From a candidate division WWE3 bacterium RAAC2_WWE3_1 (GTDB taxonomy: Bacteria; Patescibacteriota; WWE3; UBA101185; UBA10185), in the NCBI GenBank assembly GCA_000503835.1, contig CP006914.1:157218-221217 (forward strand): a stretch of DNA of 64,000 nt, read 5' to 3'. The notes below the pieces were generated by a model. It saw only the letters and a list, made by a program, of their open reading frames with translations. It was not told the origin of the DNA and ran no database searches. The first letter of the stretch is position 1, and every line of letters starts with the position of its first letter. The position numbers were made by a program, and so were the translations under genes. Below, one piece after another: positions 32,108 to 48,998 of the stretch.

Positions 32108-32189
32108 TTTGATACCTCCTAAATTTGGATTAGAGGCTAATTGTACCCTATAGTACATATTTTGTCCAGTCTTAGGGATGTTTAAATGG

Positions 32190-32262
32190 AGCCGATAACA
32201 GGAGTCGAACCTGTGACCTTTCCCTTACGAAGGGACTGCTCTACCAACTGAGCTATACCGGC
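32190..32262 (-). tRNA. tRNA-Thr (anticodon CGU)
   Basis: Reverse-complement folds as GCCGGTA-TA-GCTC-AGTTGGTA-GAGC-A-GTCCC-TTCGTAA-GGGAA-AGGTC-ACAGG-TTCGACT-CCTGT-TATCGGC-T. Very close to canonical bacterial tRNA-Thr; one G·A mismatch at position 27-43. CCA is encoded at 32187-32189. Confidence 0.85.
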
Positions 32263-32370
32263 AATGCGTTAATAATACCATTACAGACGGCTCAAGCCTT
32301 AAAAATTATACTACTGGTAAGAAGGTTTAACGTAAAAATGATCGGATGACTCCCTGTTTTAGCCCGTTAA

Positions 32371-32408
32371 TTGACTTGCGTCAGGTCGGATACTACAATA
32401 CCTAGTAA
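32371..32408 (+). promoter_or_regulatory. Sigma70-like promoter (TTGACT-17-TACAAT) overlapped by inverted repeat TACTA-N7-TAGTA; near-leaderless start of blaI-like gene
   Basis: TTGACT at 32371-32376, a 17-nt spacer, and TACAAT at 32394-32399. Inverted repeat TACTA at 32391-32395 / TAGTA at 32403-32407. The ATG at 32410 has no Shine-Dalgarno. Confidence 0.5.
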
Positions 32409-32409
32409 C

Positions 32410-32808
32410 ATGAGCAATAAAAGGGTTACAGGCAAAGTATTGGGTAATCTGGAATCCGAGGTAATGGAAATTATCTGGAGTCTAAAAGGCGAGGCTTCGG
32501 TCAAATGTGTGGCCGAAATTTTAAGCAAAAAACGCAAAATCGCATATACAACCGTGATGACCGTCATGGCGAGACTAGCGAGTAAAGGTGTTCTGGTACG
32601 ACACATGAACGGGCCGAGCTATCTGTATAAACCCAAAGTTACAAAAGACCGATTTATAGCAAAAGCGGCCCACAGTATTTTTTCTTCGGCCGTTTCCAAC
32701 CTGGGTGATGAAGTGTTAGCTCATTTTATAAAAGAAATCCAAAAGATTAGTCCGAAGAAACGACAGGAGCTTTTGAAGATGCTGAACGAAGACCGAAAGG
32801 GTATTTGA
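32410..32808 (+). CDS. BlaI/MecI/CopY-family winged-helix transcriptional repressor
   Basis: EVMEIIWSLKGEASVKCVAEIL...IAYTTVMTVMARLASKGVL matches the penicillinase-repressor family N-terminal domain. No CopY-type C-terminal Cys motif. Confidence 0.8.
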   Translation: MSNKRVTGKVLGNLESEVMEIIWSLKGEASVKCVAEILSKKRKIAYTTVMTVMARLASKGVLVRHMNGPSYLYKPKVTKDRFIAKAAHSIFSSAVSNLGDEVLAHFIKEIQKISPKKRQELLKMLNEDRKGI

Positions 32809-32823
32809 CGCTTTTCTCGAATT

Positions 32824-33834
32824 ATGAAAAGAATTAATTTAAGTTTTTATGTATTACTTTTATCTTCGTTAAGTGTCGGTCTGGTTCTGACCGCCGTTTT
32901 ATATAAAGTTTCACCTTTCTTTACTTCAAGAACCCTTTTCCTTTGTCAAAAATTCGTTTCGGGCATGATGACGGAAATTCCCCGTCCGGTGTCTAACTTA
33001 CTCATTCTGGCTGTAGGGATAGTTGTAGGGACAGGGCTTTTATCTTTCCTAGTGCAACTTATCAAAACCCATATTTTCTTAAAAAAACTACTCGTAAAAA
33101 AGATTCCGGTATCCCGGGTGTTAGCAGGAGTCCTGGAAAAATTAAAACTTACAAAGAAAGTAGTTCTGGTTAAGGACGACAACCTGTTTTCTTTTTGTTG
33201 CGGTATCTTTTCCCCCTTTATAGTTGTGAGCACCGGTCTTGTGAGATCCCTGACAGTCAAAGAATTAGAGGCAGTTCTGTTACATGAACAATCTCATCTG
33301 ATAAGCAGGGATCCTGGTAAGGTCCTTCTGGGAAAAACATTTTCCTCTATGTTCTTCTTTCTGCCTATTTTTAGGGAGCTTCATAAAGATACGGAGGCAG
33401 TCAATGAACTGTTAGCGGATCAATGGGCGATCAGACACCAGGAAAATTCAACTTTTTTGCGCAGTGCCCTTAAAAAAATATTAGCGGCACCCGAAGTAAA
33501 TTTGGCAGCTGTTTCCAACGCATCCGGTCCGGACTATTTCGAGATAAGAATCCACCGTCTAGTGGACCCCGGCACAAAACACAAACTCAGGCCTTCACCG
33601 GTAAGCTTAGTGACGACCTTTTTGTTTATTTTGGTGGGGTGGTTCTCATTGCAAACTCCGGTCAATGCTTTTCATTCGGATACTATGAACAACAACGCTT
33701 ATCATTCGGATACTATTTTTTTATGTTCACACGATTGGGCCTGTTCCGAGGAGTGCAGGATTAACATTGAACAGCCCGTGAAATATATACCCGCCGACAT
33801 GCTCGTGCCCGAAAAGAAATGCGGAAACGATTAG
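32824..33834 (+). CDS. BlaR1/MecR1-like M56 zinc metalloprotease signal transducer lacking the penicillin-binding sensor domain, with Cys-rich C-terminal tail
   Basis: About 4 TM helices and an HExxH (LLHEQSHLISRD) zincin motif positioned as in the M56 family. Only 336 aa. C-terminus CSHDWACSEECRIN...KKCGND. Confidence 0.72.
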   Translation: MKRINLSFYVLLLSSLSVGLVLTAVLYKVSPFFTSRTLFLCQKFVSGMMTEIPRPVSNLLILAVGIVVGTGLLSFLVQLIKTHIFLKKLLVKKIPVSRVLAGVLEKLKLTKKVVLVKDDNLFSFCCGIFSPFIVVSTGLVRSLTVKELEAVLLHEQSHLISRDPGKVLLGKTFSSMFFFLPIFRELHKDTEAVNELLADQWAIRHQENSTFLRSALKKILAAPEVNLAAVSNASGPDYFEIRIHRLVDPGTKHKLRPSPVSLVTTFLFILVGWFSLQTPVNAFHSDTMNNNAYHSDTIFLCSHDWACSEECRINIEQPVKYIPADMLVPEKKCGND

Positions 33835-33938
33835 AATGTGTGCCGTTTTTCTATCCGGTTTCCTCTTATTTTCTTATTGACAAAACTCAGGTAGTTCTAC
33901 TACACTGAGTAGTAGTTCATTTAGAAAGGAGGTATCTT

Positions 33939-34202
33939 ATGACGGAAACTCAGAAATCAGAAACAAATACAACTCCCATTCAGGAAAGCACAGTAATCGT
34001 ACGTGTCCCCAAACCAAATCTACAGGTTGTGGTGCTGGGACTCATAGCTCTTATCACTCTTTTTCAAACTTTTCAACTGATGCGTATTAGTGCTAAAGCC
34101 AGTACGGTATCGGTAAAATCCGCTCCCGCCACTACCACTAATAGCGGAACCGGCACGGGAACCGATTCGGATGTACCGGAGTCAATGGTTGGAGGCTGCT
34201 AA
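33939..34202 (+). CDS. Small membrane protein (87 aa) ending in GGC
   Basis: Strong Shine-Dalgarno AAGGAGG at 33926-33932, one TM helix, Thr/Gly-rich tail. Confidence 0.45.
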   Translation: MTETQKSETNTTPIQESTVIVRVPKPNLQVVVLGLIALITLFQTFQLMRISAKASTVSVKSAPATTTNSGTGTGTDSDVPESMVGGC

Positions 34203-34226
34203 GTCGTTACACAGGATTGAAATACT

Positions 34227-35459
34227 ATGAACTGGAAAAGTGTTTTATCAGATGTTGGTTCCGGGGTGAGGAGTAAGAAAGAAGACTTAAATATCACGTG
34301 GCCAAAGATAATTTTGAGCATCGGATTTTTGGCCGCTGTTATCGGAGCCCTTGTTTCAACCGAAACCCTTGCAACCATCAATAAAAATATTGCCAAAGCG
34401 GAAGAAGAAGCCCGTCCTGCCGAGGTGGCGATAGTTAAGATAATTACCCCCGATTGCCGTTATTGTTTTAATGTCGACTTGGCAGTGAATGATTTTAAAA
34501 AGCAAAATGTTAAAGTAGTGGAAGAAAAAACTTTAATTTACGGTTCCCCGGAGGCCGAAGCCTCGATCAGGCAGTTTTCAATTCAAAGAATTCCTACTTA
34601 TATTGTTTCAGGAGAAATAACCAAAAGTAATATTGAGAGTTTTGTTAAAAGTACCGGAGAAGTTAGAGGAGCCGCCGAAGACACATCGACAAGCAATGCT
34701 TTTGTTTTTACCAAGGTCACACCTGTTTATATCGATACCGAAAGTAACCAGGAAATGGGCAAGGTAACGGCAACTATATTGAGCGACCCGTCGTGTACTC
34801 AGTGTTTGGACCCTAAATTGACGATAGAGGGTTTTAAAAAGTCCGGAATAAAAATAGTCGACGAAAAAGAGATAGTTTGGAACTCTTCCGAGGGTAGGAA
34901 AATTATTGATCAGTTCAAAATTACTAAATTACCCACCTTTATTCTTTCCCCTGAGATAGATATCTACGATAACGTTAGGTCAAACTGGGCTAATATCGGA
35001 ACAATAGAGCAGGATAAAACTTATGTGGCGAGAAATTTGTTCTTTCCATACAGAGACATAGAGAAGGGCGGAATATTGGGATTGGTCGATTTGGTGTATC
35101 TTGTCGATTCAAGCTGCGGCGATTGTTACAAGGTCGACACCGTCCAGAAACCCATTCTTGAACAGGGATATGGCGTTCGTTTTCGTTCTGAAAGGACAGT
35201 TGACGTTTTATCCGAAGAGGGACAACGTTTGACGAATAGATACAAAATTACTAAACTTCCCACAATACTGTTATCACCCGATGTAGCTCAGTACACAAAT
35301 CTGCAAAAAATCTGGAACGGTGTCGGAACGATTGAACAGGACGGTTGGTATGTATTCAGGGAGATGCAGCAATTGGGCGGAGCTGTTTACAAAGATTTGG
35401 CAACCAATCAGACGGTCGGAAAGACGCCTGCAGTATCCGGCACGGGGGGAGCACAATAA
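34227..35459 (+). CDS. Membrane-anchored protein with three tandem thioredoxin-fold (DsbA/Trx-like) repeats, each with a CxxC motif
   Basis: N-terminal TM, then three ~110-aa repeats carrying CRYC, CTQC and CGDC. Each is followed by a conserved ...KITKLPT(F/I)(I/L)LSP(E/D)... and ...GTIEQD..YV segment. Confidence 0.7.
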   Translation: MNWKSVLSDVGSGVRSKKEDLNITWPKIILSIGFLAAVIGALVSTETLATINKNIAKAEEEARPAEVAIVKIITPDCRYCFNVDLAVNDFKKQNVKVVEEKTLIYGSPEAEASIRQFSIQRIPTYIVSGEITKSNIESFVKSTGEVRGAAEDTSTSNAFVFTKVTPVYIDTESNQEMGKVTATILSDPSCTQCLDPKLTIEGFKKSGIKIVDEKEIVWNSSEGRKIIDQFKITKLPTFILSPEIDIYDNVRSNWANIGTIEQDKTYVARNLFFPYRDIEKGGILGLVDLVYLVDSSCGDCYKVDTVQKPILEQGYGVRFRSERTVDVLSEEGQRLTNRYKITKLPTILLSPDVAQYTNLQKIWNGVGTIEQDGWYVFREMQQLGGAVYKDLATNQTVGKTPAVSGTGGAQ

Positions 35460-35464
35460 TAATT

Positions 35465-36745
35465 ATGAACTCATTATTAGCACCATTAAAAATTATTTTC
35501 AGAGAGTCTTTTTACAGGCACGTAGCTTTCTTCACGATCCTGGCATTCGGTTACCTTTCCTATTGGCTATTTTACAAGAGCACAACTTTCGAAACCTACC
35601 TGTTAAATATGAAGACCGGGGATTTTGGAGAGTTCAGTGTTGCATACGGCGTTACTTACATATCTACAACAATTTTGACAATTATTTTATCCGGGATAAG
35701 CGTGGCTACAGTTTTTTGGCTTTACCGTCATTCCAAGTTGAGTCAGATCAGGAATATCGGCGCAAATCTTGGGGGGCTAATCGCAGCCTTTTTCGGTACA
35801 GGCTGTCCCGTATGCGGAGCGTTCTTATTGTCAGCGATCGGTGTAACAGGAGGACTGGCCGTATTTCCCTTACAAGGACTGGAACTTAAATTTTTAAGTT
35901 TGGGTCTTATCGCAGGGTCATTATTTTACGGTGTTAAGAAGGTACACGAAATGATTCACTGCGACGATTGTAATGATATCTCACACGACCGCAAAAGCCG
36001 CACAAGTGAAAAAAAAGGCCGCAGGTTTTTTATTTTGCCGCTAAGAGACACTCTTATATACACTCTGGCAGGACTTTTCCTTGTCAACCAATTTTTAATT
36101 GCGCAGGTTTCTGCGGCTATGGGTATGGTTGCTAATAAGGGATTAGTAGCCCAGCTTTTGGGCATACAAACCAGGTCTACCTACACCATAATTGCTCCCA
36201 AAATAAATCCCGACAAAAAGACCACTTCGCTTGCCGAATGGCCGACAATCACTGAAGTTCCGGCCAATCCGAATAGTGGAAACGCACTCGCCGATGCCAA
36301 GGTAGTAATGATTGCGACCGGTCAGCCTTTTTATGCCCCAGAAAATGTCTCGTTTGATGACCCGATTAATGCCCAAAAGAAATGGGGGGCATTTGAAAAA
36401 TCCATAAAACTGTCAACGGAACAGGAAGCAAGATACCAAAGACTTATCGGTACTATGATGACCTGCAGCTACTGTTGCGGCGGCCCTAAAAATGTAACTA
36501 TGAATAAAAACTGCGGATGTGCTCACGCAAAAGCCGTGAGAGGATTTTACCGCTACATGATCCAGAATTACGGCGACAAATACTCTGATGAACAATTGGT
36601 AGGCGAGTCACATCGATGGTACGCCTTGTGGTACCCGAAAGGAATGCTTGAAGATTATTTGCTGGCTACCGGTAACGAAAGTGCATTACCTCACACGTCA
36701 CACGGAGGTGCAGGTTCAGACGGAAGGCACGGAATCGCGAAATGA
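35465..36745 (+). CDS. Cys-rich polytopic membrane protein (TM CPVC, loop CDDC, C-terminal CSYCCGG/CGC cluster)
   Basis: Start reassigned to ATG at 35465 (MNSLLAPL...), immediately after the stop of the upstream gene. About 4 TM helices; GTGCPVCGAFLLSAIGVTGG lies in a TM segment. The alternative overlapping frames at 35320/35345 are rejected. Confidence 0.6.
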   Translation: MNSLLAPLKIIFRESFYRHVAFFTILAFGYLSYWLFYKSTTFETYLLNMKTGDFGEFSVAYGVTYISTTILTIILSGISVATVFWLYRHSKLSQIRNIGANLGGLIAAFFGTGCPVCGAFLLSAIGVTGGLAVFPLQGLELKFLSLGLIAGSLFYGVKKVHEMIHCDDCNDISHDRKSRTSEKKGRRFFILPLRDTLIYTLAGLFLVNQFLIAQVSAAMGMVANKGLVAQLLGIQTRSTYTIIAPKINPDKKTTSLAEWPTITEVPANPNSGNALADAKVVMIATGQPFYAPENVSFDDPINAQKKWGAFEKSIKLSTEQEARYQRLIGTMMTCSYCCGGPKNVTMNKNCGCAHAKAVRGFYRYMIQNYGDKYSDEQLVGESHRWYALWYPKGMLEDYLLATGNESALPHTSHGGAGSDGRHGIAK

Positions 36746-37089
36746 TCAATTTCATCGATTACCTCGATTTTTTCATATTTATAGGCGGAACTGTAATACT
36801 CGTAGGTATACTTTATTTTTTCTTCCGTGATTCCTTAAAGGATATTTTTATTTCGGAGGATGACATAGCGGAGCCTGAAATTTCAAAACGTTCGCCCGTT
36901 GTGGAAATATTATTTTCCGAAGACCGTAAAAATAATCCGTCATCGGCTTTGATTAAAAAGATAGGGGCGGTTTTTATAGCTATTATTATCGGCGGTTTTG
37001 TGCTGAACCAGTTCCTGATGTGGAAAATGACCTCTTCCGCTATTTCGGAAAGGCCTTTCGATATAAATATTAGTATTTCTAAAAAATGA
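36742..37089 (+). CDS. Small membrane protein
   Basis: 115 aa, two hydrophobic helices, translationally coupled to the upstream gene (4-nt overlap). Confidence 0.4.
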   Translation: MINFIDYLDFFIFIGGTVILVGILYFFFRDSLKDIFISEDDIAEPEISKRSPVVEILFSEDRKNNPSSALIKKIGAVFIAIIIGGFVLNQFLMWKMTSSAISERPFDINISISKK

Positions 37090-37096
37090 GAAAAAT

Positions 37097-37648
37097 ATGA
37101 CAACAGAAACCAAGGTTTTAATAAGTGTCGCGATAGTTACAGTCGCTCTCCTCGGAGGGGGTGTGTGGTTTATGAGTAATCAGACTGCCGGAGAACAGGC
37201 TAAACTAAGTCGACCGTTAATGGGCGAAACCACCCCGGATCAGGGAGCCGCGCACATACCGGAAGGTACAACGGCGGAATACAGCACGAATCCTCCGACA
37301 ACCGGTCCGCACTACGGAAAGTCCCAGTCCGCTGGTATTTACGATATGCCGATACCGGATGGAAACCTTTTACATAGCATGGAACATGGGGCGGTCATAA
37401 TTTGGTATAAAGCAGCCAATGGGTCAGAGGACGGAGGCTTATCCGGTCAGGATATTGAGCGGCTAAAACAGATTTTCAGCTCGGTTGCCGTTAATAAGAA
37501 AATCATGGTGCCGAGGGAAAACCTTGATGTTCCGGTAGCTCTAACCTCCTGGGGTAGATTACTTAAGCTTCAGACAATCGATGAAATCCAAATCAAAGCT
37601 TTTATGGAGACGAATGAAGACAGGGGTCTTGAAAAAGCGCCGCTCTAG
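37097..37648 (+). CDS. Membrane-anchored DUF3105-like protein
   Basis: N-terminal TM. PTTGPHY and HSMEHGAVIIWY match the conserved Gly-Pro-His and His-x-x-E-H-G segments of DUF3105. Confidence 0.6.
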   Translation: MTTETKVLISVAIVTVALLGGGVWFMSNQTAGEQAKLSRPLMGETTPDQGAAHIPEGTTAEYSTNPPTTGPHYGKSQSAGIYDMPIPDGNLLHSMEHGAVIIWYKAANGSEDGGLSGQDIERLKQIFSSVAVNKKIMVPRENLDVPVALTSWGRLLKLQTIDEIQIKAFMETNEDRGLEKAPL

Positions 37649-37790
37649 AATTTGGACCTTCTTTAATTCCGTTTCCATGAAAGAGCTGCAGCACTTTTAT
37701 GTGGGCAGTAAAGCTCCACAACATAAGGAATTTAGAAGTTTCAAACTTGTACTACACATTGTAGTATCTTTTGTGCTATAGTTAACTGAA

Positions 37791-38246
37791 ATGGGTGAAT
37801 TAATTGTAAGTAAAGACATTTTGAAGAAGGCGTCATTAAAAGGAGCCATTTCTTTTACCGTTCTCTTGTCGGTGTACTTCCTGATTCTAACGCTAGTTTC
37901 GGGATGGAACTTTGCCTGGGTGCAGTTTACGCAGTTTTGGTATTACATCCTGACTCTCGCTTTAGGATTTGGTATACAATTTACCCTTTACAGCTACCTT
38001 AGAGATGTTGTGAAACAAGCTTCTACAGGACAAGTTTTGGCTACAACAGGGGCAACGTCGACGGCAGCCATGATATCCTGCTGTGCTCACTACTTAACCA
38101 ACATCCTGCCCGTTTTGGGGGTAACAGGAATTATTACTTTTATTGGCCAGTACCAGGTTCAATTTTTCTGGGCCGGATTATTTTTTAATCTTCTTGGGAT
38201 ACTTTACATCGGAAATAAAGTTTTGAAAGTTTCGGGACGAATATGA
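37791..38246 (+). CDS. Polytopic membrane protein with MerT-like vicinal-Cys helix (MISCCAHYLTNILPVLG)
   Basis: 151 aa with about 4 TM helices. The CC motif sits within a helix followed by Pro/Gly, as in MerT TM1. Confidence 0.5.
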   Translation: MGELIVSKDILKKASLKGAISFTVLLSVYFLILTLVSGWNFAWVQFTQFWYYILTLALGFGIQFTLYSYLRDVVKQASTGQVLATTGATSTAAMISCCAHYLTNILPVLGVTGIITFIGQYQVQFFWAGLFFNLLGILYIGNKVLKVSGRI

Positions 38247-38722
38247 AGAAAACTACAGTTATTTTTATCGTTATATTAATAGTTATTTTGGTTATCGTGC
38301 TTAAAAATAGTCTTACCGTAAATATAGGCCCTAAAGATATAGGTACGCCTGCCGGCACAAACGGTTCTTTCCAAAACACAAATAGCAACAACGGCTTGGA
38401 AACAAAAGAAAGTAACGACGGTCCGGTATCCGTCACCGTTACGCCTCTTGATGTAGGGGATAACGCATCCCTATGGAGTTTTGACATCGCGCTAAACACT
38501 CATTCTGAGGAGATTGGAGAAGATCTGACTGTTGTGTCCGTGCTTATAGATGACGGAGGAAAGACATACAGACCTATATCGTGGGAAGGTTCAGCTCCGG
38601 GAGGCCACCATCGTAGCGGTGTTCTAAAATTTAGTGCTATATCACCCAGACCTAATACTCTGGAGTTAAAAATAAACAATGTCGGCGGAATTTCCGAAAG
38701 GAGCTTTAAGTGGGAGCTTTAA
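38243..38722 (+). CDS. Membrane-anchored beta-rich protein with His-rich patch (APGGHHRSG)
   Basis: N-terminal TM, then a predicted beta-sandwich-like extracytoplasmic domain. No family assigned. Confidence 0.45.
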   Translation: MKKTTVIFIVILIVILVIVLKNSLTVNIGPKDIGTPAGTNGSFQNTNSNNGLETKESNDGPVSVTVTPLDVGDNASLWSFDIALNTHSEEIGEDLTVVSVLIDDGGKTYRPISWEGSAPGGHHRSGVLKFSAISPRPNTLELKINNVGGISERSFKWEL

Positions 38723-38729
38723 AAAGTTT

Positions 38730-39323
38730 ATGAGTGAAAAGAAAGTCATTGTAATAGTTTCCGTAATCACGATAGCTTTGCTCATAGTGCCTACCTTTCT
38801 AATTGGCGGCAATAAAGGTGACAACTCTTCTAAAACTTCGACGGAGGCCGCATCTCTTAACGAGTTAGTTGGAAGATCTGCGGCTGATTTTACCCTGGAA
38901 AGTTATAATGGCGACAAAACAACTCTGAGTAGTCTTAAAGGTAAAAACGTAATCCTCTTTTTTAATGAAGGTCTCATGTGCTATCCGGCTTGTTGGGATC
39001 AGATTGCCGCTTTCGGGAAGGACACCGAATTTGCAGATAAAAATACGGTGGTATTAACTATTGTGACCGATTCAAAAAAAGATTGGGAAGGTGCAGTTGA
39101 AAAAATGCCGGAGCTTACCGGGGCAATTGTCTTACTCGATACTAACCGAAAGGTATCCGTTTCGTATAAAATGCTATCGCTTCCTTCCTCGATGCATAGA
39201 GGCCAGACTCCGGGGCATACTTATGTAGTTATTGATGCCGAGGGTATTGTTCGCTATGTTAAAGATGATGTTCAAATGGCTGTCAGAAATCAGGAGTTAC
39301 TGGCGGAGATAGGAAAACTATAA
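38730..39323 (+). CDS. Membrane-anchored thioredoxin-fold protein, Sco1/SenC- or redoxin-like (CxxxC)
   Basis: Start moved to ATG at 38730, after the upstream stop. TM anchor. GKNVILFFNEGLMCYPACW has C-x3-C in the Sco1-type position, with a conserved His about 85 aa downstream (SSMHRGQTPGH). Confidence 0.65.
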   Translation: MSEKKVIVIVSVITIALLIVPTFLIGGNKGDNSSKTSTEAASLNELVGRSAADFTLESYNGDKTTLSSLKGKNVILFFNEGLMCYPACWDQIAAFGKDTEFADKNTVVLTIVTDSKKDWEGAVEKMPELTGAIVLLDTNRKVSVSYKMLSLPSSMHRGQTPGHTYVVIDAEGIVRYVKDDVQMAVRNQELLAEIGKL

Positions 39324-39326
39324 TCT

Positions 39327-40193
39327 ATGGAACTTTTAATTAGTGCATCATTTATAGCATCGTTCTTTGCGGGAATCGCAGCACTTTTTGCCCCCTGCTG
39401 TATCACTGTTCTCCTGCCGACTTATTTCGCTTCCATTTTTAAGCAGAAATCTACCGTGTTTTTGATGACCTTTGTTTATTTTCTCGGTATCCTGTCGATC
39501 TTTCTTCCTATCGGTCTCGGAGTTTCATTTCTCACCCAGCTTTTCAGCCAATACCATGACACCATTTTCCTCATCGGCGGAATATTTTTGATATTTCTGG
39601 GGATGACTTTACTTCTCGGACAACAAATGTCTTTACCTTTCAGCGTCCACCCGAAATTAAAAGGGCAGGATTTTGTGTCGGTTTATGTCTTAGGTGTATT
39701 TTCAGCCGTCGCAACCACCTGCTGCGCCCCCGTACTAGCAGGAGTCCTGACTTTGTCGGCGCTTCCCGGATCGGTGTTCTTAGGCGGAGTTTATACTCTT
39801 GCTTATGTACTGGGCATGGTCCTGCCTCTTTTCATTATCGCCTTTACTTTAGACAAGGTCGATTTTACTCAGAAGTTCGTTGCCTTTAGAAAGAGAATCT
39901 CTTACTCTGTGCTCGGTCAAAAGGTAAGTCTGACTTTTGCTAATCTATTCTCCGGGCTAATGTTCCTGGTTCTGGGCATTGTTATAATTTACCTTGCCAA
40001 GACAAGCCAGCTGACATCCCACTCCTCATACCAGGTTTCGTTGAATATATACCTGACAAAATTTATTAACGGGATAGGACGGTTTACGCAGGTTATTCCC
40101 GAGGCAGGATGGGCTGCCATTTTCATCCTTGTCACACTGTTCGTTACTTTTACTGCCATCAGACAATTTATAAATTTAAAGAAAAGGAAGTGA
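39327..40193 (+). CDS. CcdA/DsbD_2-like transmembrane protein with two MerT-like vicinal-Cys helices
   Basis: 8 predicted TM helices. FAPCCITVLLP and ATTCCAPVLAGVL lie in separate helices. Confidence 0.6.
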   Translation: MELLISASFIASFFAGIAALFAPCCITVLLPTYFASIFKQKSTVFLMTFVYFLGILSIFLPIGLGVSFLTQLFSQYHDTIFLIGGIFLIFLGMTLLLGQQMSLPFSVHPKLKGQDFVSVYVLGVFSAVATTCCAPVLAGVLTLSALPGSVFLGGVYTLAYVLGMVLPLFIIAFTLDKVDFTQKFVAFRKRISYSVLGQKVSLTFANLFSGLMFLVLGIVIIYLAKTSQLTSHSSYQVSLNIYLTKFINGIGRFTQVIPEAGWAAIFILVTLFVTFTAIRQFINLKKRK

Positions 40194-40199
40194 TTTTGA

Positions 40200-40865
40200 A
40201 TGAATAAAAACGGACTTATTGCAACTTTGGGCACCGGGCTGATTTTGGGTTTAGTTATACTTATAAGCAATTTTAATATTCGGATAGATGTAAATAGTAA
40301 CGATGGCCGGGAGCCTATCGGCAGACAGATGACACCGCAGGCACAGGATGACTCTATGGCGGGTCATCACGGAGGTGGCACACCGGCCGACGCCACTCTT
40401 TTTAACGACTTGGTCGGTAAAACGGCGCCTGACTTTACGTTGGAAAGCTACGATGGAAAAAAGATAACTCTTAGTGAGCTGAAGGGTCAGAACGTCATTC
40501 TTTTCTTTAATGAGGGCCTCATGTGCTACCCGGCCTGCTGGAACCAGATTTCTGCTTTCGGCAAGGATACTGCATTGCAAAGTAAGGCTGTGGTACTAAA
40601 CATCACGGTCGACCCCAAAAATAACTGGAAACAGGCCGTAAATAAAATGCCTGAACTTGCCGGTGCCACGGTACTTTTTGACAGCAGTAGGGAAGTCTCT
40701 AAGAAATACGGAGTTTTAACTCTGCCGTCATCAATGCACAAAGGTCAATTTCCGGGGCACAGCTATGTAATAATAGACAAAGAAGGAACAGTTAAATTTA
40801 TCAGGGACGATGTTTCTATGGCGGTAAGAAATGATGAGCTATCTGCGGAACTGGACAAGTTGTAA
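40200..40865 (+). CDS. Sco1/SenC- or redoxin-like thioredoxin-fold protein, paralog of 38730-39323, with His/Met-rich N-terminal segment
   Basis: About 60% identical to the upstream paralog over the folded domain, with the same LMCYPACW and SSMHKGQFPGH motifs. N-terminal segment DSMAGHHGGG. Confidence 0.65.
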   Translation: MNKNGLIATLGTGLILGLVILISNFNIRIDVNSNDGREPIGRQMTPQAQDDSMAGHHGGGTPADATLFNDLVGKTAPDFTLESYDGKKITLSELKGQNVILFFNEGLMCYPACWNQISAFGKDTALQSKAVVLNITVDPKNNWKQAVNKMPELAGATVLFDSSREVSKKYGVLTLPSSMHKGQFPGHSYVIIDKEGTVKFIRDDVSMAVRNDELSAELDKL

Positions 40866-40884
40866 TTTATAAGGAGGTGAAACT

Positions 40885-41094
40885 ATGGGTATTTTTAATA
40901 ACGTACAAAGTATCTTTAAAAAGACCGGTAGTGCAGTAAACTACGTTAAAGACCCGATCTGCGGTATGAAGGTTAATCTGGATAAGGCAGAATTCAAAAG
41001 TACATATGAAGGCAAAGAATATGGTTTCTGTTCTGCAAGCTGTAAGGTTGAGTTTGACAGTAATCCCGACCAGTATGCGCTTGCAGGCCGTTAA
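40885..41094 (+). CDS. YHS/TRASH-domain metal-binding protein
   Basis: DPICGMKV...GKEYGFCSASCKVEFDSNPDQY fits the YHS domain pattern. Shine-Dalgarno AGGAGG at 40872-40877. Confidence 0.8.
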   Translation: MGIFNNVQSIFKKTGSAVNYVKDPICGMKVNLDKAEFKSTYEGKEYGFCSASCKVEFDSNPDQYALAGR

Positions 41095-41137
41095 ATATTT
41101 TCGACCGTACGGATTTTGTTAATTCCATATTTGTTTA

Positions 41138-41166
41138 TTGACAGTAGTTGTGCAGACTGATATATT
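41138..41166 (+). promoter_or_regulatory. Sigma70-like promoter TTGACA-17-TATATT upstream of arsR-like gene
   Basis: TTGACA at 41138-41143, a 17-nt spacer, and TATATT at 41161-41166. Short direct repeat TATTTC-GA-TATTTC downstream (41174-41187). Confidence 0.5.
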
Positions 41167-41195
41167 ATTGAAGTATTTCGATATTTCAATAAACT

Positions 41196-41468
41196 ATGTC
41201 AAAGAATACCTTAAAAGTTTTTAAAGCATTGGCAAACAGAACCAGGATAAAAATACTCAAAAAGCTGGTAGATGACGAGGAACTGTCCTGTCAGGAACTG
41301 ATGAAACATTTTCCATTATCACAGCCCACTCTTTCACACCACTTCGGCAAATTAATAGAAGGCGGAATTTTACGTGTAAAGAAGGACGGTGTCAGCCACT
41401 ATTATAGTGTCAATAAAACCTATCTTGCAGGCCTCGGCGTGGATATCGAAAAGATAACAAAGTTGTAA
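41196..41468 (+). CDS. ArsR/SmtB-family metalloregulatory transcriptional repressor
   Basis: LANRTRIKILKKL...ELSCQEL...LSQPTLSHHFGKLIEGGIL matches the ArsR HTH signature. Confidence 0.85.
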   Translation: MSKNTLKVFKALANRTRIKILKKLVDDEELSCQELMKHFPLSQPTLSHHFGKLIEGGILRVKKDGVSHYYSVNKTYLAGLGVDIEKITKL

Positions 41469-41488
41469 TTTAAATTGGAGGTAAAAAT

Positions 41489-42109
41489 ATGGAAAGTAAT
41501 AATGAATTTGGAAATTTAAGCGCGAACGACAGGCTAGAAAGAACAGTTGCGGCGTTGCAGCAGAGCGGATTTACGGTGGAGACAGTAGAGACAGGTAGTG
41601 AAGCGAAAGAAAAAGTTTTGAGTATTCTTCCCGAAAAAGCAGAGGTTTTTACCATGGCATCTCAAACACTGGAACAAGTAGGTTTATCGGATGCTATCAA
41701 CACTTCAGGCAAATATGATTCTGTCCGAAATAAGCTCAACGCGATGGACAGGAATACGGAAGGTCGGGAGATGGCCAGGCTGGGAGCTGCCCCGGACTGG
41801 GTAGTTTCTTCGGTGCACGCAGTTACGGAAGACGGTCACCTATTAATTGCTTCTAATACAGGTAGCCAACTTTCAGCAGAAGCTTACTCCGGCGGTAAAG
41901 TGATTTTTGTGGCAGGTACCCAAAAAATTGTTAAGGATAACGCCGAAGGTTTAAGGAGAATCTACGAATATGTTCTCCCGCTGGAAGATGTACGGGCTCA
42001 AAAAGCTTATGGCATGCATAGCAACGTATCAAAGATTTTGATTATAAATAAGGAAATAGTGCCGGAAAGAATAATTGTTATTTTGGTTAAGGAGAAGCTG
42101 GGGTTTTAA
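41489..42109 (+). CDS. LUD-domain (LutC/YkgG-like) protein
   Basis: About 200 aa with a VTEDGHLLIASNTGSQL segment resembling the LUD/DUF162 core. Shine-Dalgarno GGAGG at 41477-41481. Confidence 0.5.
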   Translation: MESNNEFGNLSANDRLERTVAALQQSGFTVETVETGSEAKEKVLSILPEKAEVFTMASQTLEQVGLSDAINTSGKYDSVRNKLNAMDRNTEGREMARLGAAPDWVVSSVHAVTEDGHLLIASNTGSQLSAEAYSGGKVIFVAGTQKIVKDNAEGLRRIYEYVLPLEDVRAQKAYGMHSNVSKILIINKEIVPERIIVILVKEKLGF

Positions 42110-42215
42110 CGGAACGCATTGTTTTTGTTTGCGATGTTTTTCGCTCCGCCATTCTCATCCCTTACACCCTATAAATTTGCCCACCAACCCTACGGGCTGT
42201 TGGTCAAATTTCTGG

Positions 42216-42287
42216 AGCGGGTGACGGGATTCGAACCCGCGACCTTTTCCTTGGGAAGGAAACGCCATACCACTAGGCCACACCCGC
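42216..42287 (-). tRNA. tRNA-Gly (anticodon CCC)
   Basis: Reverse-complement GCGGGTG-TG-GCCT-AGTGGTA-TGGC-G-TTTCC-TTCCCAA-GGAAA-AGGTC-GCGGG-TTCGAAT-CCCGT-CACCCGC-T, close to E. coli tRNA-Gly(CCC). CCA encoded at 42213-42215. Confidence 0.85.
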
Positions 42288-47566: not shown

Positions 47567-48998
47567 ACTTAATGAACTTACAGTTTTAGAAGCGCTCGAA
47601 GGTTTGAAAAAGAAAGAATTTACTTCCGTAGAATTGGTAAAGGCCTGTTTATCCCAAATTGAAAAATACGATTCTAAAATTAAGGCCTTTTTGAGAGTTA
47701 CCCCTGAGATTGCATTAAAAAGAGCCGAAGAAGCCGACAAAGAGATTTCTACCAAAGGTGTCGAGGCCTTTATAAACAAACCTTTGTTAGGTATTCCGTA
47801 TGCGGCGAAAGATAATTATTCAACAAAAGGTGTGGAAACTACCGCGTCCTCAAAAGTTTTGGAAGGTTATGTTCCTCCGTTTGACGCTACGGCCATTAAA
47901 AGGCTGGACGAGGCAGGAGCGATTTTGCTGGGAAAAACTAACTTGGATGCTTTTGCCCACGGATCTTCTACTGAAACTTCGGACTTCGGAACGACCTTTA
48001 ATCCGTGGGACCTGACTAAGGTTCCGGGCGGCTCCTCAGGGGGCTCAGCGGCCGCTGTAGCGTCTCACATGGTGTTATTTGCAACCGGAAGTGAGACAGG
48101 GGGAAGTACAAGAGGTCCCGCGTCCTGGTGCGGTGTTACGGGCGTAAAACCCTCTTACGGCAGGGTGAGCAGGTATGGAATTGTAGCCATGGCTTCTTCT
48201 ACCGATTCTCCTGGTCCGTTAACTAAAACAGCCGAAGATGCCGCGGTAGTTTTAAGAGTTATGGCGGGAAAAGATCCGCTTGACGCAACATCCTTACAAA
48301 CAGAAGTGCCCGATTATTTAGCCGAAGGGAAGTCTTTTAGCATGAAGGGAATAAAAATCGGAAGGCCGGTGTCCTACTTTGAAATGGAGCTTGAAGAGGG
48401 AACAAGGAAAAAAGTTGATGAGGCGGTTGAGGTTTTCAGAAGTTTGGGAGCCGAGATTATTGATGTCGACATGCTGAGTCCGAAATATTCTATTGCCGTT
48501 TACACAATTCTGCAAAGATCCGAAGTTTCTTCTAATTTGGCTAGACTCGACGGAATAAGATACGGAAACGACCGCAACTCTTTCGGATTTGAAGCTAAGA
48601 AAAGAATTATGCTGGGTGCTTACACTTTAAGCTCGGGATACTACGATGCTTACTACGCGAAAGCACAAAAAGTACGGACATTAATTAAGCAAAGTTTTGA
48701 TGCTGCGTTTGAAAAAGTCGATTTGCTGGTTGCTCCTTCCATGCCGTGTGTCGCTTTGAATGTAGGCGAAAGCTCTAACTCTCCGATGTTCGGAGAAATG
48801 ATGGATGTTTTGAACGAGCCAAGCTGTATTGCGGGAGTACCGGGAATTAGCGTGCCGTGCGGGTTATACAACGGTTTACCCGTCGGTGTCCAAATAATGA
48901 GCAAAATTAACGAAGAGTCGAAAATATTCGGGGCGCTATTTAATTATCAGGGGGCGACGGGCTTTCATCTGGAAAAACCGGCGTTAATCAAGGAATAA
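47559..48998 (+). CDS. gatA: Asp/Glu-tRNA amidotransferase subunit A (amidase signature)
   Basis: Amidase signature GGSSGGSAAAVAS and KTNLDAFA. Confidence 0.92.
   Translation: MSKLNELTVLEALEGLKKKEFTSVELVKACLSQIEKYDSKIKAFLRVTPEIALKRAEEADKEISTKGVEAFINKPLLGIPYAAKDNYSTKGVETTASSKVLEGYVPPFDATAIKRLDEAGAILLGKTNLDAFAHGSSTETSDFGTTFNPWDLTKVPGGSSGGSAAAVASHMVLFATGSETGGSTRGPASWCGVTGVKPSYGRVSRYGIVAMASSTDSPGPLTKTAEDAAVVLRVMAGKDPLDATSLQTEVPDYLAEGKSFSMKGIKIGRPVSYFEMELEEGTRKKVDEAVEVFRSLGAEIIDVDMLSPKYSIAVYTILQRSEVSSNLARLDGIRYGNDRNSFGFEAKKRIMLGAYTLSSGYYDAYYAKAQKVRTLIKQSFDAAFEKVDLLVAPSMPCVALNVGESSNSPMFGEMMDVLNEPSCIAGVPGISVPCGLYNGLPVGVQIMSKINEESKIFGALFNYQGATGFHLEKPALIKE

What the first reader, a model, noticed from the sequence alone, without database searches (positions are those of the whole stretch)
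32190..42287. tRNA-bounded ~10 kb island encoding a putative thiol/metal (copper-like) sensing and detoxification system
The block lies between tRNA-Thr (32190-32262) and tRNA-Gly (42216-42287) and is all same-strand and tightly packed. It contains a BlaI-like repressor and a sensor-less BlaR1-like M56 protease, a triple-CxxC thioredoxin-repeat protein, and a Cys-rich membrane protein. It also has DUF3105, a MerT-like CC-helix membrane protein, a His-patch beta protein, Sco-like CxxxC redoxin copy 1, a CcdA/DsbD_2-like transporter with two CC helices, Sco-like copy 2 with an MxGHH tail, a YHS/TRASH protein, an ArsR/SmtB regulator and a LUD-domain protein. Each piece has precedent in Cu/Hg handling or extracytoplasmic thiol redox. 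Their combination under a BlaI/BlaR1-type proteolytic switch plus an ArsR regulator is not a described operon architecture. tRNA flanks are classic insertion points for acquired islands, although no integrase is present.
Basis: partly seen in the sequence, partly recalled or inferred. Interest (0 to 1): 0.8.

Follow-up and report, generated by a model that had tools for sequence, protein, structure and literature searches.

The report
Copper-linked BlaI/M56 envelope thiol regulon
This 10-kb block in a tiny groundwater bacterium (Candidate Phyla Radiation) is a conserved set of membrane-anchored cysteine-rich proteins switched on by a protease-and-repressor pair, most likely to cope with copper outside the cell. 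It is built largely from protein families nobody has described.

Summary
The gene content is real. Fifteen same-strand genes lie between tRNA-Thr and tRNA-Gly in a Ca. Daviesbacteria (CPR) genome, and most family calls hold.

The "acquired island" reading is not supported. Composition is ordinary, there is no integrase or att repeat, and only the closest relatives share the tRNA flanks.

The new result is a BlaI-type operator, TACTAC-N5-GTAGTA. In the window it sits on three promoters: blaI-M56, sm87-Trx3-CysMem-sm115-DUF3105, and CCmem151-Hisβ-Rdx1-DsbD_TM-Rdx2-YHS. It recurs at the same positions in 38 related loci, with 48 sites, all intergenic.

The core cassette (BlaI, M56, small protein, triple-CxxC protein, Cys-rich membrane protein) is conserved across CPR bacteria and DPANN archaea.

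In relatives, the operator or the neighbourhood adds multicopper oxidase, cupredoxin, CsoR, a P1B-ATPase, DUF2933, ICMT and Met-rich proteins. Copper is therefore the best-supported signal.

The Cys-rich protein founds an unannotated family (about 1,320 clusters). It has a CcmH-like domain and an invariant C-terminal …MVGGC hook, which in this lineage is split off as the 87-aa protein.

ArsR-LUD is a separate, non-conserved unit. The nearest precedents are cyanobacterial PetR/PetP (the switch) and Scs or CcdA-redoxin modules (the output).

Verdict: a new variant of a known kind, moderately to highly interesting, resting on computational evidence only.

The parts
32187..32262 (-). tRNA-Thr(cgt); left boundary, not part of the system
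   Evidence: ARAGORN. The same flank occurs only in the closest relative L002.
32371..32407 (+). blaI promoter (TTGACT-17-TACAAT) with operator O1, TACTACAATACCTAGTA (1 mismatch), at 32391-32407
   Evidence: Equivalent sites lie 0-30 nt upstream of blaI in 11 related loci.
32410..32808 (+). BlaI/MecI/CopY-family winged-helix repressor (132 aa). It has no CopY-type C-terminal Cys motif.
   Evidence: PF03965 at 2e-27. The CopY_TcrY score of 64 is below the 122 cut-off. The gene call is on the source contig.
32824..33834 (+). Sensor-less BlaR1-like M56/M48 membrane zinc protease (336 aa). Its extracytoplasmic loop (27-58) and tail (277-336) carry conserved Cys/His.
   Evidence: HExxH is conserved and loop/tail conservation is shown. 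Topology estimate.
33877..33914 (+). Promoter (TTGACA-18-TACACT) overlapped by the perfect operator O2, TACTACACTGAGTAGTA (33898-33914)
   Evidence: Equivalent sites precede the sm87 ortholog in 19 related loci.
33939..34202 (+). sm87: an N-in single-TM protein with a low-complexity tether and an invariant C-terminal …P-x-S-M-V-G-G-C-COOH hook
   Evidence: The same terminal motif is fused to CysMem-family proteins in 66 of 149 representatives.
34227..35459 (+). Trx3: a membrane-anchored protein with three thioredoxin-like repeats, each with a CxxC (C77/80, C190/193, C297/300) and a (K/R)(I/L)PT cis-Pro-type motif
   Evidence: Sub-threshold Trx hits. An internal repeat is spaced 327 nt apart. 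The CxxC motifs are conserved in 37 orthologs.
35465..36745 (+). CysMem, a new family. The N-terminal polytopic domain has an intramembrane CPVCG and a C166xxC169. The extracytoplasmic C-domain carries CSYCCG…CGCxH and a His-rich tail.
36742..37089 (+). sm115: a two-TM protein of unknown function that travels with DUF3105
37097..37648 (+). Membrane-anchored DUF3105 protein with invariant H53, H72, H93, M95 and H97
   Evidence: PF11303 at 2e-27. Conservation.
37750..37782 (+). Perfect operator O3, TACTACACATTGTAGTA (37750-37766), overlapping the -35 of a promoter-like site (…TATAGT)
   Evidence: Perfect sites precede CCmem151 orthologs in 8 related loci and in L050.
37791..38246 (+). CCmem151: a polytopic membrane protein with an invariant AM-x-S-C-C-x-H helix
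   Evidence: It has no family hit. In L051 its ortholog lies between CsoR and a P1B-ATPase.
38243..38722 (+). Hisβ159: a membrane-anchored Ig-like β-sandwich with invariant H87, H122 and H123
38679..39323 (+). Rdx1: a membrane-anchored Prx/TlpA-fold redoxin with M-C-x3-C plus SSMH…PGH
   Evidence: AhpC-TSA at 2e-16. Conservation. It is a paralog of Rdx2.
39327..40193 (+). CcdA/DsbD-type membrane protein with two invariant vicinal Cys pairs (APCC, TTCCAP)
   Evidence: PF02683 at 2e-10. Conservation. Homologs in cultured bacteria sit in CueR, P-type ATPase and DUF2933 contexts.
40200..40865 (+). Rdx2: the second membrane-anchored CxxxC redoxin, with an MAGHH stretch in its linker
   Evidence: AhpC-TSA at 1e-19. 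PDB neighbours are Bcp-like proteins and ResA, with no Sco. The Prx PxxxTxxC motif is lost.
40885..41094 (+). Cytoplasmic stand-alone YHS-domain protein (C26, M28, C49, C53 conserved)
   Evidence: PF04945 at 6e-19. Conservation.
41138..42109 (+). Separate unit: a strong promoter (11/12 match, no BlaI operator), ArsR/SmtB-family HTH (41196-41468) and a LUD-domain protein (41489-42109). It is adjacent to, but probably not part of, the conserved system.
   Evidence: The unit is present only in L001, L002 and L050.
42213..42287 (-). tRNA-Gly(ccc); right boundary, not part of the system

Best explanation
The block is a vertically inherited regulon, not a recently acquired island. It is controlled by a BlaI-family repressor and a sensor-less M56 membrane protease, and it equips the cell surface to handle copper and copper-driven thiol damage.

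**Proposed sequence of events**

1. *Repression (shown computationally).* BlaI binds TACTAC-N5-GTAGTA operators that overlap the core elements of three promoters.
2. *Sensing (inferred by analogy with PetP/BlaR1).* Copper, or copper-oxidised thiols, is sensed by conserved Cys/His in the two extracytoplasmic segments of M56. The cytoplasmic zinc-protease domain then cleaves BlaI and the promoters are derepressed.
3. *Transcription unit 2 (inferred).* This unit builds a membrane-tethered relay.
   - sm87 carries a Met…Cys-COOH hook on a flexible tether.
   - CysMem carries a Cys-rich CcmH-like ectodomain.
   - Trx3 carries three CxxC thioredoxin-like modules.
   - Together they bind Cu(I) and/or reduce or isomerise surface cysteines.
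   - CysMem's membrane domain (an intramembrane CPVC plus a cytoplasm-side CxxC) may couple this relay to the cytoplasm.
4. *Transcription unit 3 (inferred).*
   - A CcdA-type protein carries reducing equivalents outward to two membrane-anchored CxxxC redoxins.
   - A CC-helix membrane protein and a His-bearing β-sandwich handle Cu(I) at the membrane.
   - A cytoplasmic YHS protein buffers metal.

ArsR-LUD is an independent neighbouring unit.
For: **Operator**
- In the window there are 2 perfect sites and 1 one-mismatch site, all on promoters of island operons. The only other site with <=2 mismatches in 64 kb is a single 2-mismatch hit.
- In the 38 related genome loci (551 kb) there are 48 sites with <=1 mismatch, all intergenic. 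19 lie before sm87, 11 before blaI, 8 before CCmem151 and 1 before CysMem.

**Synteny**
- The sm87-Trx3-CysMem triad is present in essentially all loci, including DPANN archaea.
- BlaI-M56 is adjacent in most loci.

**Copper links**
- Other operator-preceded genes in relatives:
  - Met/His-rich SHOCT proteins;
  - ICMT;
  - DUF2933;
  - a DsbA / CysMem-N-domain / cupredoxin / multicopper oxidase operon.
- Neighbourhood counts in the 38 loci: CsoR-family in 7, MCO in 3, ICMT in 7, DUF2933 in 7, Met-rich SHOCT in 8.
- L051 has the operon CsoR-CCmem151-Hisβ-P1B heavy-metal ATPase.
- L046 has a cupredoxin translationally coupled to CysMem.
- The DsbD_TM-redoxin pair in cultured bacteria sits next to cueR, DUF2933, ICMT and a P-type ATPase.
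- DUF2933-ICMT clusters are copper-induced in Alteromonas (PMC8478169).

**Ligand-type residues (Cys, His, Met)** are invariant in every effector.

**Precedent**: PetR/PetP is a BlaI/M56 pair in which the repressor is degraded in a copper- and protease-dependent way.

**Topology** estimates place the reactive domains outside the cell.
Against: - There is no experimental evidence at all. The metal identity is inferred from neighbours in other genomes.
- The window itself has no multicopper oxidase, cupredoxin, CsoR, DUF2933, ICMT or P-type ATPase.
- The Hisβ fold match to CrdA/PCuAC is no better than its match to generic Ig-like lipoproteins.
- About ten loci carry the triad without an adjacent BlaI/M56.
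- Cys-rich surface systems could equally answer to oxidants or to other thiophilic metals.
- A 469-aa pyridine-nucleotide disulfide oxidoreductase follows module 2 in one relative. It could be MerA-like and was not examined.
Confidence: 0.6

Rival explanations
1. This is a copper-availability switch for cuproprotein maturation rather than detoxification. As with PetRP, copper derepresses genes needed to use copper. The CcdA-redoxin, PCuAC-like β-sandwich, CcmH-like and Trx modules keep cupredoxin or MCO cysteine ligands reduced and deliver Cu, analogous to TlpA/Sco/PCuAC in CuA assembly.
For: - A cupredoxin lies directly upstream of CysMem in L046.
- A DsbA / CysMem-N / cupredoxin / MCO operon sits behind a BlaI operator in L009.
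- PetRP controls a cupredoxin.
- The redoxins carry a CxxxC+His pattern.
- A PCuAC domain appears among the Hisβ fold hits.
Against: - Cupredoxin or MCO neighbours are rare (3-4 of about 45 loci), and none is in the window.
- Efflux and repressor markers of copper excess are more frequent: CsoR, a P1B-ATPase and Met-rich proteins.
- Many genomes have the cassette standing alone among housekeeping genes.
Confidence: 0.15
2. This is a general extracytoplasmic thiol/disulfide-stress (oxidant) response with no specific metal role. M56 senses oxidation of its own surface cysteines, and the regulon is a Dsb-like repair or isomerase system.
For: - Most effectors are thioredoxin-fold or CxxC proteins, and DsbA-like genes join the regulon in relatives.
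- The M56 sensor segments conserve Cys.
- CcmH-like fold.
- A rhodanese fusion and a cytochrome c fusion occur in the family.
Against: It does not explain several recurrent features: the linkage to CsoR, a P1B-ATPase, MCO, cupredoxin, YHS and Met/His-rich proteins, the conserved Met and His next to the Cys motifs, or the copper context of homologs in cultured bacteria.
Confidence: 0.13
3. This is detoxification of another thiophilic metal (Hg, Ag, Cd) in a mer-like manner. The CC-helix membrane proteins would import the metal for cytoplasmic reduction or sequestration.
For: - Vicinal Cys pairs in TM helices resemble MerT/MerF (from my own knowledge; the motifs are shown).
- A pyridine-nucleotide disulfide oxidoreductase follows module 2 in one relative.
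- An ArsR-family regulator is adjacent.
Against: - There is no MerT, MerP or MerA family hit in the window.
- ArsR has its own promoter, is not conserved with the system, and lacks canonical metal sites.
- All informative neighbours are copper-specific families.
Confidence: 0.05
4. This is a horizontally acquired genomic island integrated at a tRNA gene.
For: - tRNA genes flank the block.
- The cassette occurs in different genomic contexts in different lineages and in both CPR and DPANN, implying transfer at some evolutionary depth.
Against: - GC and tetranucleotide composition are indistinguishable from the rest of the window.
- There is no integrase and no att-like repeat.
- Both tRNAs are on the opposite strand to the genes.
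- Close relatives share the same flanking housekeeping genes.
Confidence: 0.05

Closest known systems
PetR/PetP of Synechocystis sp. PCC 6803 (BlaI/CopY-family regulator plus sensor-less M48/M56 protease; copper-dependent degradation of PetR)
   Same: - The same two protein families sit in the same adjacent, co-oriented arrangement.
- The protease lacks the β-lactam sensor domain.
- The operator is an inverted repeat with a 5-nt spacer (GAC-N5-GTC versus TAC-N5-GTA at the core here).
- Copper is the proposed signal, sensed through an extracytoplasmic segment of the protease.
   Different: - The PetRP regulon is only petE, petJ, slr0601 and slr0602. Here it comprises at least 13 genes for envelope thiol/metal proteins.
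- The proposed ligands are Met in PetP and Cys/His here.
- The system here has no experiments.
BlaI/BlaR1 and MecI/MecR1 of staphylococci and Bacillus
   Same: PF03965 repressor, M56 protease with HExxH, a TACA/TGTA-type palindromic operator, and autoregulation.
   Different: There is no C-terminal penicillin-binding sensor domain, no β-lactamase or PBP2a target gene, and NCBIfam scores are far below the BlaI/BlaR1 cut-offs.
CopY/TcrY copper repressors of Firmicutes
   Same: Same repressor family. CopY_TcrY is the best NCBIfam hit (1.5e-17). The output is copper-related.
   Different: - The score of 64 is below the 122 cut-off.
- The C-terminal CxCx4CxC metal site is absent.
- The cop-box TACAnnTGTA is absent from the window.
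- A partner protease is present.
- No CopA/CopZ operon is present.
Scs (suppressor of copper sensitivity) system ScsABCD, and CcdA-ResA/TlpA-Sco reducing pathways
   Same: These are copper-induced envelope thiol-redox modules: a DsbD/CcdA-type membrane electron transporter feeding thioredoxin-fold partners, some of which bind Cu(I) (PMC10907172, PMC8900818).
   Different: - There is no ScsB-type N-terminal domain and no ScsC/DsbG homolog.
- The membrane protein has vicinal CC pairs.
- The partners are Prx-fold CxxxC proteins.
- The regulation differs.
- The host is monoderm-like and all partners are membrane-anchored.
CcmH (System I cytochrome c maturation thiol-disulfide oxidoreductase)
   Different: - There is no sequence-level match to CcmH.
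- The motif is CSYCC…CGCxH rather than LRCxxC.
- There is an extra β-hairpin and an N-terminal β-domain.
- The hosts are thought to lack c-type cytochrome respiration.
merR/cueR-copA-cupredoxin-DUF2933-ICMT clusters of Proteobacteria
   Same: DUF2933, ICMT, cupredoxin and CcdA-redoxin genes co-occur with this cassette in relatives and with copper regulators in cultured bacteria.
   Different: The window itself lacks DUF2933, ICMT and cupredoxin. The regulator type differs (MerR/CueR versus BlaI/M56).

Membership tests
BlaI/MecI/CopY repressor family (PF03965) | Winged-helix Penicillinase_R domain scoring above the Pfam threshold | tested here: met
   96.2 bits against a 22.6 cut-off, covering model positions 1-114 of 115.
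BlaI/MecI/CopY repressor family (PF03965) | Palindromic TAC…GTA-type operator in its own promoter and in target promoters | tested here: met
   TACTAC-N5-GTAGTA sits at three island promoters. Sites are conserved in relatives.
CopY/TcrY copper repressors (TIGR02698) | Equivalog score, plus a C-terminal CxCx4CxC Zn/Cu site | tested here: not met
   64 bits against a 121.95 cut-off. The C-terminus is …LKMLNEDRKGI with no Cys.
BlaR1/MecR1 β-lactam sensor-transducers | M56 protease domain with HExxH | tested here: met
   PF05569 at 46.7 bits against a cut-off of 31. HEQSH is at 154-158 and conserved in 96% of orthologs.
BlaR1/MecR1 β-lactam sensor-transducers | C-terminal extracellular penicillin-binding (transpeptidase-like) sensor domain | tested here: not met
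   The protein is 336 aa against a model of about 585 aa. Only positions 99-239 of blaR1_generic are matched, and the score is 32 against a cut-off of 400.
PetR/PetP-type copper switch | Adjacent BlaI-family gene and sensor-less M56 gene | tested here: met
   The stop-to-start gap is 15 nt.
PetR/PetP-type copper switch | Copper- and protease-dependent degradation of the repressor | not testable with these tools
   This needs biochemistry. Only contextual copper links are available.
Sco1/SenC copper chaperones (PF02630) | Profile match to SCO1-SenC | tested here: not met
   No SCO1-SenC hit at E<=0.01. The hits are AhpC-TSA and Redoxin. No Sco protein is among the 28 PDB sequence hits.
Sco1/SenC copper chaperones (PF02630) | CxxxC plus a distal His on a thioredoxin fold | tested here: met
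   C109-x3-C113, H180 and H187 are invariant in Rdx2 orthologs. This is a resemblance, not membership.
Peroxiredoxins (AhpC/TSA, Bcp) | Active-site PxxxT/SxxC with a peroxidatic Cys | tested here: not met
   In the alignment to Bcp-like 2ywn, Pro is replaced by Glu and Thr by Cys109, with a 1-residue insertion. The Pfam domain match itself is above threshold.
CcdA/DsbD transmembrane electron transporters (PF02683) | Profile match, plus one essential Cys in each of the two pseudo-symmetric halves | tested here: met
   40.7 bits against a cut-off of 27.1. C24/C25 and C132/C133 are invariant. Here they occur as vicinal pairs, which is atypical.
MerT/MerF mercury transporters | Profile match to the MerT family | tested here: not met
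   CCmem151 has no Pfam hit at E<=10, no NCBIfam hit, and no plasmid homolog.
ArsR/SmtB metal sensors | HTH_5/HTH_20 domain | tested here: met
   NF033788 at 73 bits against a cut-off of 55.
ArsR/SmtB metal sensors | Canonical α3 (CxC) or α5 (DxH…H..E) metal site | tested here: not met
   By inspection, α3 reads ELSCQEL (one Cys) and there is no α5 His/Asp cluster. This rests on my own knowledge of the motifs.
CcmH/NrfF thiol-disulfide oxidoreductases | Sequence family membership and the LRCxxC motif | tested here: not met
tRNA-integrated genomic island | Integrase, att direct repeat of the tRNA 3' end, and deviant composition | tested here: not met
   The tRNA adjacency itself is met.

The most novel reading that the evidence does not exclude
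The sm87 / Trx3 / CysMem cassette, with DsbA-like partners, is the missing disulfide-bond-generating machinery of CPR bacteria and DPANN archaea. These organisms lack quinones and electron-transport chains and so cannot run DsbB or VKOR.

In this reading, electrons taken from substrate cysteines pass in the following order:
1. from Trx3/DsbA to the CcmH-like ectodomain and the MVGGC arm of CysMem;
2. from there to copper proteins (cupredoxin, multicopper oxidase) or to copper itself;
3. finally to O2.

The BlaI/M56 switch would then be a PetRP-like 'copper is available' signal that turns on a copper-dependent oxidative-folding pathway.
Probability: 0.12. Interest if true: 0.85.

Novelty: new variant of a known kind. 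Interest (0 to 1): 0.62.

Why it matters
- **Breadth of the switch.** It would extend the protease-mediated BlaI/M56 copper switch, known experimentally only from cyanobacteria where it controls four genes, to a large envelope-protection regulon shared by the two major groups of ultra-small prokaryotes.
- **Testable pieces.** It defines an operator, a regulon and at least three protein families with no annotation. One of these has about 1,320 sequence clusters and an invariant C-terminal Met…Cys-COOH hook, which gives concrete targets for metal-binding and redox biochemistry.
- **CPR/DPANN biology.** It bears on how cells without respiratory chains or quinones manage surface cysteines and toxic metals. 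That matters for their ecology in metal-bearing aquifers.
- **Annotation.** It warns against annotating these BlaI/BlaR1-like pairs as antibiotic-resistance genes.

Tried and rejected
1. **CopY cop-box.** TACAnnTGTA has 0 matches in the window, so it was replaced by the N5-spaced motif.
2. **CCmem151 and the CysMem N-domain as homologs.** The Cys helices look similar by eye, but hhalign gives a probability of 0.1%. Rejected.
3. **CysMem as a member of a known family.**
   - Pfam at E<=10, NCBIfam and a PDB sequence profile gave nothing.
   - My recollection of a PCYCGC-like motif was not supported by any hit.
4. **Domain fusions as functional clues.**
   - Of 20 long family members scanned, only two had a Pfam partner: cytochrome c (P0236) and rhodanese (P0186).
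   - That is suggestive of redox or sulfur chemistry but too sparse to use.
5. **Plasmid homologs of CCmem151.** None found.
6. **AFDB fold search of CysMem.** The library was unavailable.
7. **MerA-like check.**
   - No complete pyridine-nucleotide oxidoreductase ORF was present in the loci I held.
   - The one in L040 is cut by the locus end.
8. **Literature.**
   - Searches for DUF3105, the MVGGC motif, CPR + copper and CPR + BlaI returned nothing relevant.
   - The apparent BlaI hits in CPR papers were the author names Blainey and Blair.
9. **PDB sequence searches.** DUF3105 and Hisβ gave no significant hits.

Full report
**1. Observation**

ARAGORN finds tRNA-Thr(cgt) at 32187-32262 and tRNA-Gly(ccc) at 42213-42287, both on the minus strand. 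Fifteen closely spaced + strand ORFs lie between them. These ORFs coincide with the gene calls on the public source contig, a Candidatus Daviesbacteria / 'ACD' CPR genome (GCA_003516475.1).

Pfam and NCBIfam results:

| Protein | Result |
|---|---|
| BlaI | BlaI-family repressor |
| M56 | 336-aa M56/M48 protease, HExxH present, no penicillin-binding sensor domain |
| DUF3105 | DUF3105 |
| Rdx1, Rdx2 | AhpC-TSA/Redoxin-fold proteins |
| DsbD-like | DsbD_TM |
| YHS | Stand-alone YHS domain |
| ArsR | ArsR/SmtB HTH |
| LUD | LUD domain |
| Trx3 | Sub-threshold thioredoxin hits only |

Five proteins have no family at all, even at E<=10: sm87, CysMem, sm115, CCmem151 and Hisβ159. Two family labels need correcting: the redoxins are not SCO1/SenC members, and the membrane protein is DsbD_TM rather than DsbD_2.

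**2. Not an acquired island**

- GC is flat at 0.42-0.43 across the block and its flanks.
- The block's tetranucleotide distance from the rest of the window is 0.128. Other 10-kb segments range from 0.09 to 0.14.
- No tRNA-derived direct repeat bounds the block. The only sizeable repeat is the Rdx1/Rdx2 paralogy.
- There is no integrase.
- Of the 12 relatives scanned for tRNAs, only L002 has the tRNA-Thr and tRNA-Gly/Asp flanks.
- L050, another close relative, has the same housekeeping genes on both sides as the window: NTP-transferase upstream, LysM and Pol X downstream.

This pattern fits vertical inheritance within the clade.

**3. Synteny**

I aligned homologs of CysMem and used the alignment to fetch 38 genome loci. 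They come from Daviesbacteria, WWE3, Levy-, Roizman-, Woese-, Pace-, Uhr- and Kerfeldbacteria, and from DPANN archaea (Woesearchaeota, Aenigmatarchaeota).

Mapping the window's 15 proteins onto these loci shows three modules:

- **Core.** sm87-Trx3-CysMem is present in essentially all loci. BlaI-M56 lies immediately upstream in most CPR loci and is divergently oriented in the archaeal ones. In an Uhrbacteria genome these five genes stand alone among housekeeping genes. A distant archaeal-type contig has the same logic.
- **Module 2.** CCmem151-Hisβ-(DUF2933)-Rdx1-DsbD_TM-Rdx2-YHS changes position relative to the core.
- **Module 3.** sm115-DUF3105, followed in relatives by a second CcdA-like 225-aa protein (hhalign 97.6% to DsbD_TM).

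ArsR and LUD occur only in the nearest relatives (L001, L002, L050).

**4. The regulatory link (main new result)**

The intergenic regions contain the palindrome TACTAC-N5-GTAGTA:

| Site | Coordinates | Match | Position |
|---|---|---|---|
| O1 | 32391-32407 | 1 mismatch | 3 nt before the blaI ATG |
| O2 | 33898-33914 | perfect | 25 nt before the sm87 ATG |
| O3 | 37750-37766 | perfect | 25 nt before the CCmem151 ATG |

- The only other site with <=2 mismatches in the 64-kb window is a single 2-mismatch hit at 48639.
- The consensus promoter scan places O1 and O2 over the -10 elements and O3 over the -35 element of promoter-like sites. ArsR has its own 11/12 promoter with no operator.
- In the 38 related loci (551 kb) there are 48 sites with <=1 mismatch, all of them intergenic. 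19 precede sm87, 11 precede blaI, 8 precede CCmem151 and 1 precedes CysMem. L050 repeats the pattern.

This phylogenetic footprint shows computationally that the BlaI-family protein controls both effector operons and itself.

**5. Which signal?**

The eight remaining operator sites precede these genes:

- Met/His-rich SHOCT proteins (…MGQMMGSSHEAMNNMMIQMMG…);
- ICMT-family methyltransferases;
- a small CC-membrane protein;
- DUF2933;
- DsbA-like proteins;
- in L009, an operon of DsbA, a stand-alone CysMem N-domain, a cupredoxin and a multicopper oxidase.

Further copper links:

- Within about 10 kb of the cassette, CsoR-family repressors occur in 7 loci, multicopper oxidases in 3, ICMT in 7, DUF2933 in 7 and Met-rich SHOCT proteins in 8, including archaeal loci.
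- In L051 the CCmem151-Hisβ pair lies between a CsoR gene and a P1B-type heavy-metal ATPase that has an HMBD domain and a His-rich N-terminus.
- In L046 a cupredoxin is translationally coupled to CysMem.
- The closest DsbD_TM homologs in cultured bacteria (31-37% identity) sit in two contexts:
  - cueR-DUF2933-CcdA-peroxiredoxin-family-glutaredoxin-ICMT;
  - Grx-CcdA-redoxin-DUF305.
  - In both, a heavy-metal P-type ATPase gene lies a few kb away.
- merR-copA-cupredoxin-DUF2933-ICMT clusters are copper-induced in Alteromonas (PMC8478169).

Copper is therefore the best-supported signal. The window itself contains none of these marker genes and no P-type ATPase.

**6. The effectors**

*CysMem (426 aa)*

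- Invariant residues: C114/C117 (CPVCG), C166, C334/C337/C338 (CSYCCG), C350/C352/H354 (CGCxH) and a C-terminal LPHxTHGGAGxDGxHG tail. C169 is conserved in at least 90% of sequences.
- AlphaFold2 gives pLDDT 80, and above 90 for the ectodomain.
- An exhaustive profile search finds 1,320 representative clusters. The N- and C-domains also occur separately.

*The MVGGC hook*

- sm87 ends in an invariant …P-x-[SG]-M-V-G-G-C-COOH in every locus.
- 66 of 149 family representatives carry the same terminal motif fused to the CcmH-like domain itself, including the archaeal copies.
- This Rosetta-stone relation ties sm87 to CysMem. It suggests a flexible Met/Cys arm (His-rich in this lineage's CysMem) that works with the Cys cluster.

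*Trx3*

- It has three repeats, each with a conserved CxxC and a cis-Pro-type motif.

*Rdx1 and Rdx2*

- They keep M-C-x3-C plus SSMH…PGH.
- Their nearest solved relatives are Bcp-like peroxiredoxins and ResA, not Sco.
- The peroxidatic PxxxTxxC motif is destroyed. They are neither Sco members nor ordinary peroxidases.

*Other effectors*

- DsbD_TM has two invariant vicinal Cys pairs.
- CCmem151 has an invariant AM-x-SCC-x-H helix.
- DUF3105 has an invariant H/H/HSMEH set.

*Topology (hydrophobicity plus the positive-inside rule)*

- sm87, Trx3, DUF3105, Hisβ, Rdx1 and Rdx2 each have a single N-terminal anchor with the domain outside the cell.
- The M56 loop (27-58) and tail (277-336) are outside.
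- The CysMem ectodomain is outside.
- BlaI, YHS, ArsR and LUD are cytoplasmic.

**7. Mechanism**

*Shown computationally:* the operator-promoter architecture, the regulon composition, the conservation, and the domain folds.

*Inferred:*

- M56 senses copper, or copper-oxidised thiols, through its conserved extracytoplasmic Cys/His. Loop 1 carries '[YF]FCQ[KQ]' or 'VCGC', and the tail carries 'QTPVxAFH…FLCSxDxxCxxxCH'. M56 then cleaves BlaI, as PetP does to PetR in a copper-dependent way.
- Unit 2 forms a tethered Cu(I)/thiol relay.
- Unit 3 exports reducing equivalents through the CcdA-type protein to the CxxxC redoxins and handles Cu(I) at the membrane.
- YHS buffers metal in the cytoplasm.

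I put 0.6 on this copper-tolerance reading and about 0.85 on the narrower claim that this is a BlaI/M56-controlled regulon. The rivals are listed separately with tests:

| Rival | Confidence |
|---|---|
| Cuproprotein maturation | 0.15 |
| Generic thiol stress | 0.13 |
| Other thiophilic metals | 0.05 |
| Acquired island | 0.05 |

**8. Comparison and novelty**

- The switch resembles PetR/PetP most closely. The output resembles the Scs system and the CcdA-ResA/TlpA-Sco pathways.
- Membership tests fail for CopY (score, Cys hook), BlaR1 proper (sensor domain), Sco, Prx (active site), MerT, CcmH (sequence) and metal-sensing ArsR.
- I found no publication describing this cassette, its operator or the MVGGC family.
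- I classify it as a new variant of a known kind that is built from several undescribed families.

The most novel reading not excluded is a quinone-independent, copper-linked disulfide-forming pathway for CPR/DPANN. These organisms are reported to lack electron-transport chains (title of PMC7507113, seen; the paper was not read).

Noticed in passing
window 33663-33716 (inside the M56 gene): There is an in-frame 30-nt tandem duplication (92% identical copies). It doubles the 'AFHSDT / AYHSDT' His-containing motif in the extracytoplasmic sensor tail. The close relative L002 has a single copy.
   Followed up: partly
window 41138-41195: ArsR-LUD has the strongest promoter match in the region (TTGACA-17-TATATT with an extended TG). 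It is followed by an imperfect inverted repeat, TTGAA-N12-TTCAA, which may be an ArsR autoregulatory site. There is no BlaI operator.
   Followed up: no
L040/L041 21268 onward (sister Daviesbacteria, MFDN01000001 / DPCX01000013): A 469-aa pyridine-nucleotide disulfide oxidoreductase (Pyr_redox_2 / Pyr_redox_dim) directly follows the YHS gene of module 2. It could be MerA-like or Lpd/TrxR-like. The locus end cuts it off.
   Followed up: no
L005 6961-7596, L025 13802-14446, L003 16731-17381 and four other loci: ICMT-family methyltransferases sit behind BlaI operators in relatives. In eukaryotes this family methylates a C-terminal cysteine carboxylate. The same regulon encodes proteins ending in an invariant C-terminal Cys (…MVGGC). 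A substrate relationship is speculative.
   Followed up: partly
L036-L039, L048 (DPANN-type loci): The archaeal cassettes are accompanied by glutaredoxin-like 80-83-aa proteins (CPWC), DsbA-like proteins, a thioredoxin-reductase-like gene and recurrent small secreted Cys-rich proteins (…CSGCM…HFC…) of unknown family.
   Followed up: no
window 38839-39031 vs 40384-40576: Rdx1 and Rdx2 are tandem paralogs flanking the DsbD_TM gene (73% nucleotide identity over 193 nt). Some relatives, such as L006 and L007, have only one copy.
   Followed up: partly
P0236 and P0186 (family representatives, not in the window): One CysMem N-domain is fused to a c-type cytochrome domain, and one C-domain is fused to a rhodanese domain. 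About nine N-domain proteins of roughly 500 aa carry a second, unannotated half.
   Followed up: partly
window 48639-48655: This is the only operator-like site outside the island (TACTACGATGCTTACTA, 2 mismatches). It is probably chance, since 1.3 sites are expected at <=2 mismatches.
   Followed up: no
several 'genome contigs' records (e.g. L005, L008, L009, L011): MAGs titled 'uncultured Gammaproteobacteria bacterium' or 'Candidatus Saccharibacteria' carry cassettes 55-74% identical to the Daviesbacteria one. The record titles look like mis-assigned taxonomy for CPR bins.
   Followed up: no
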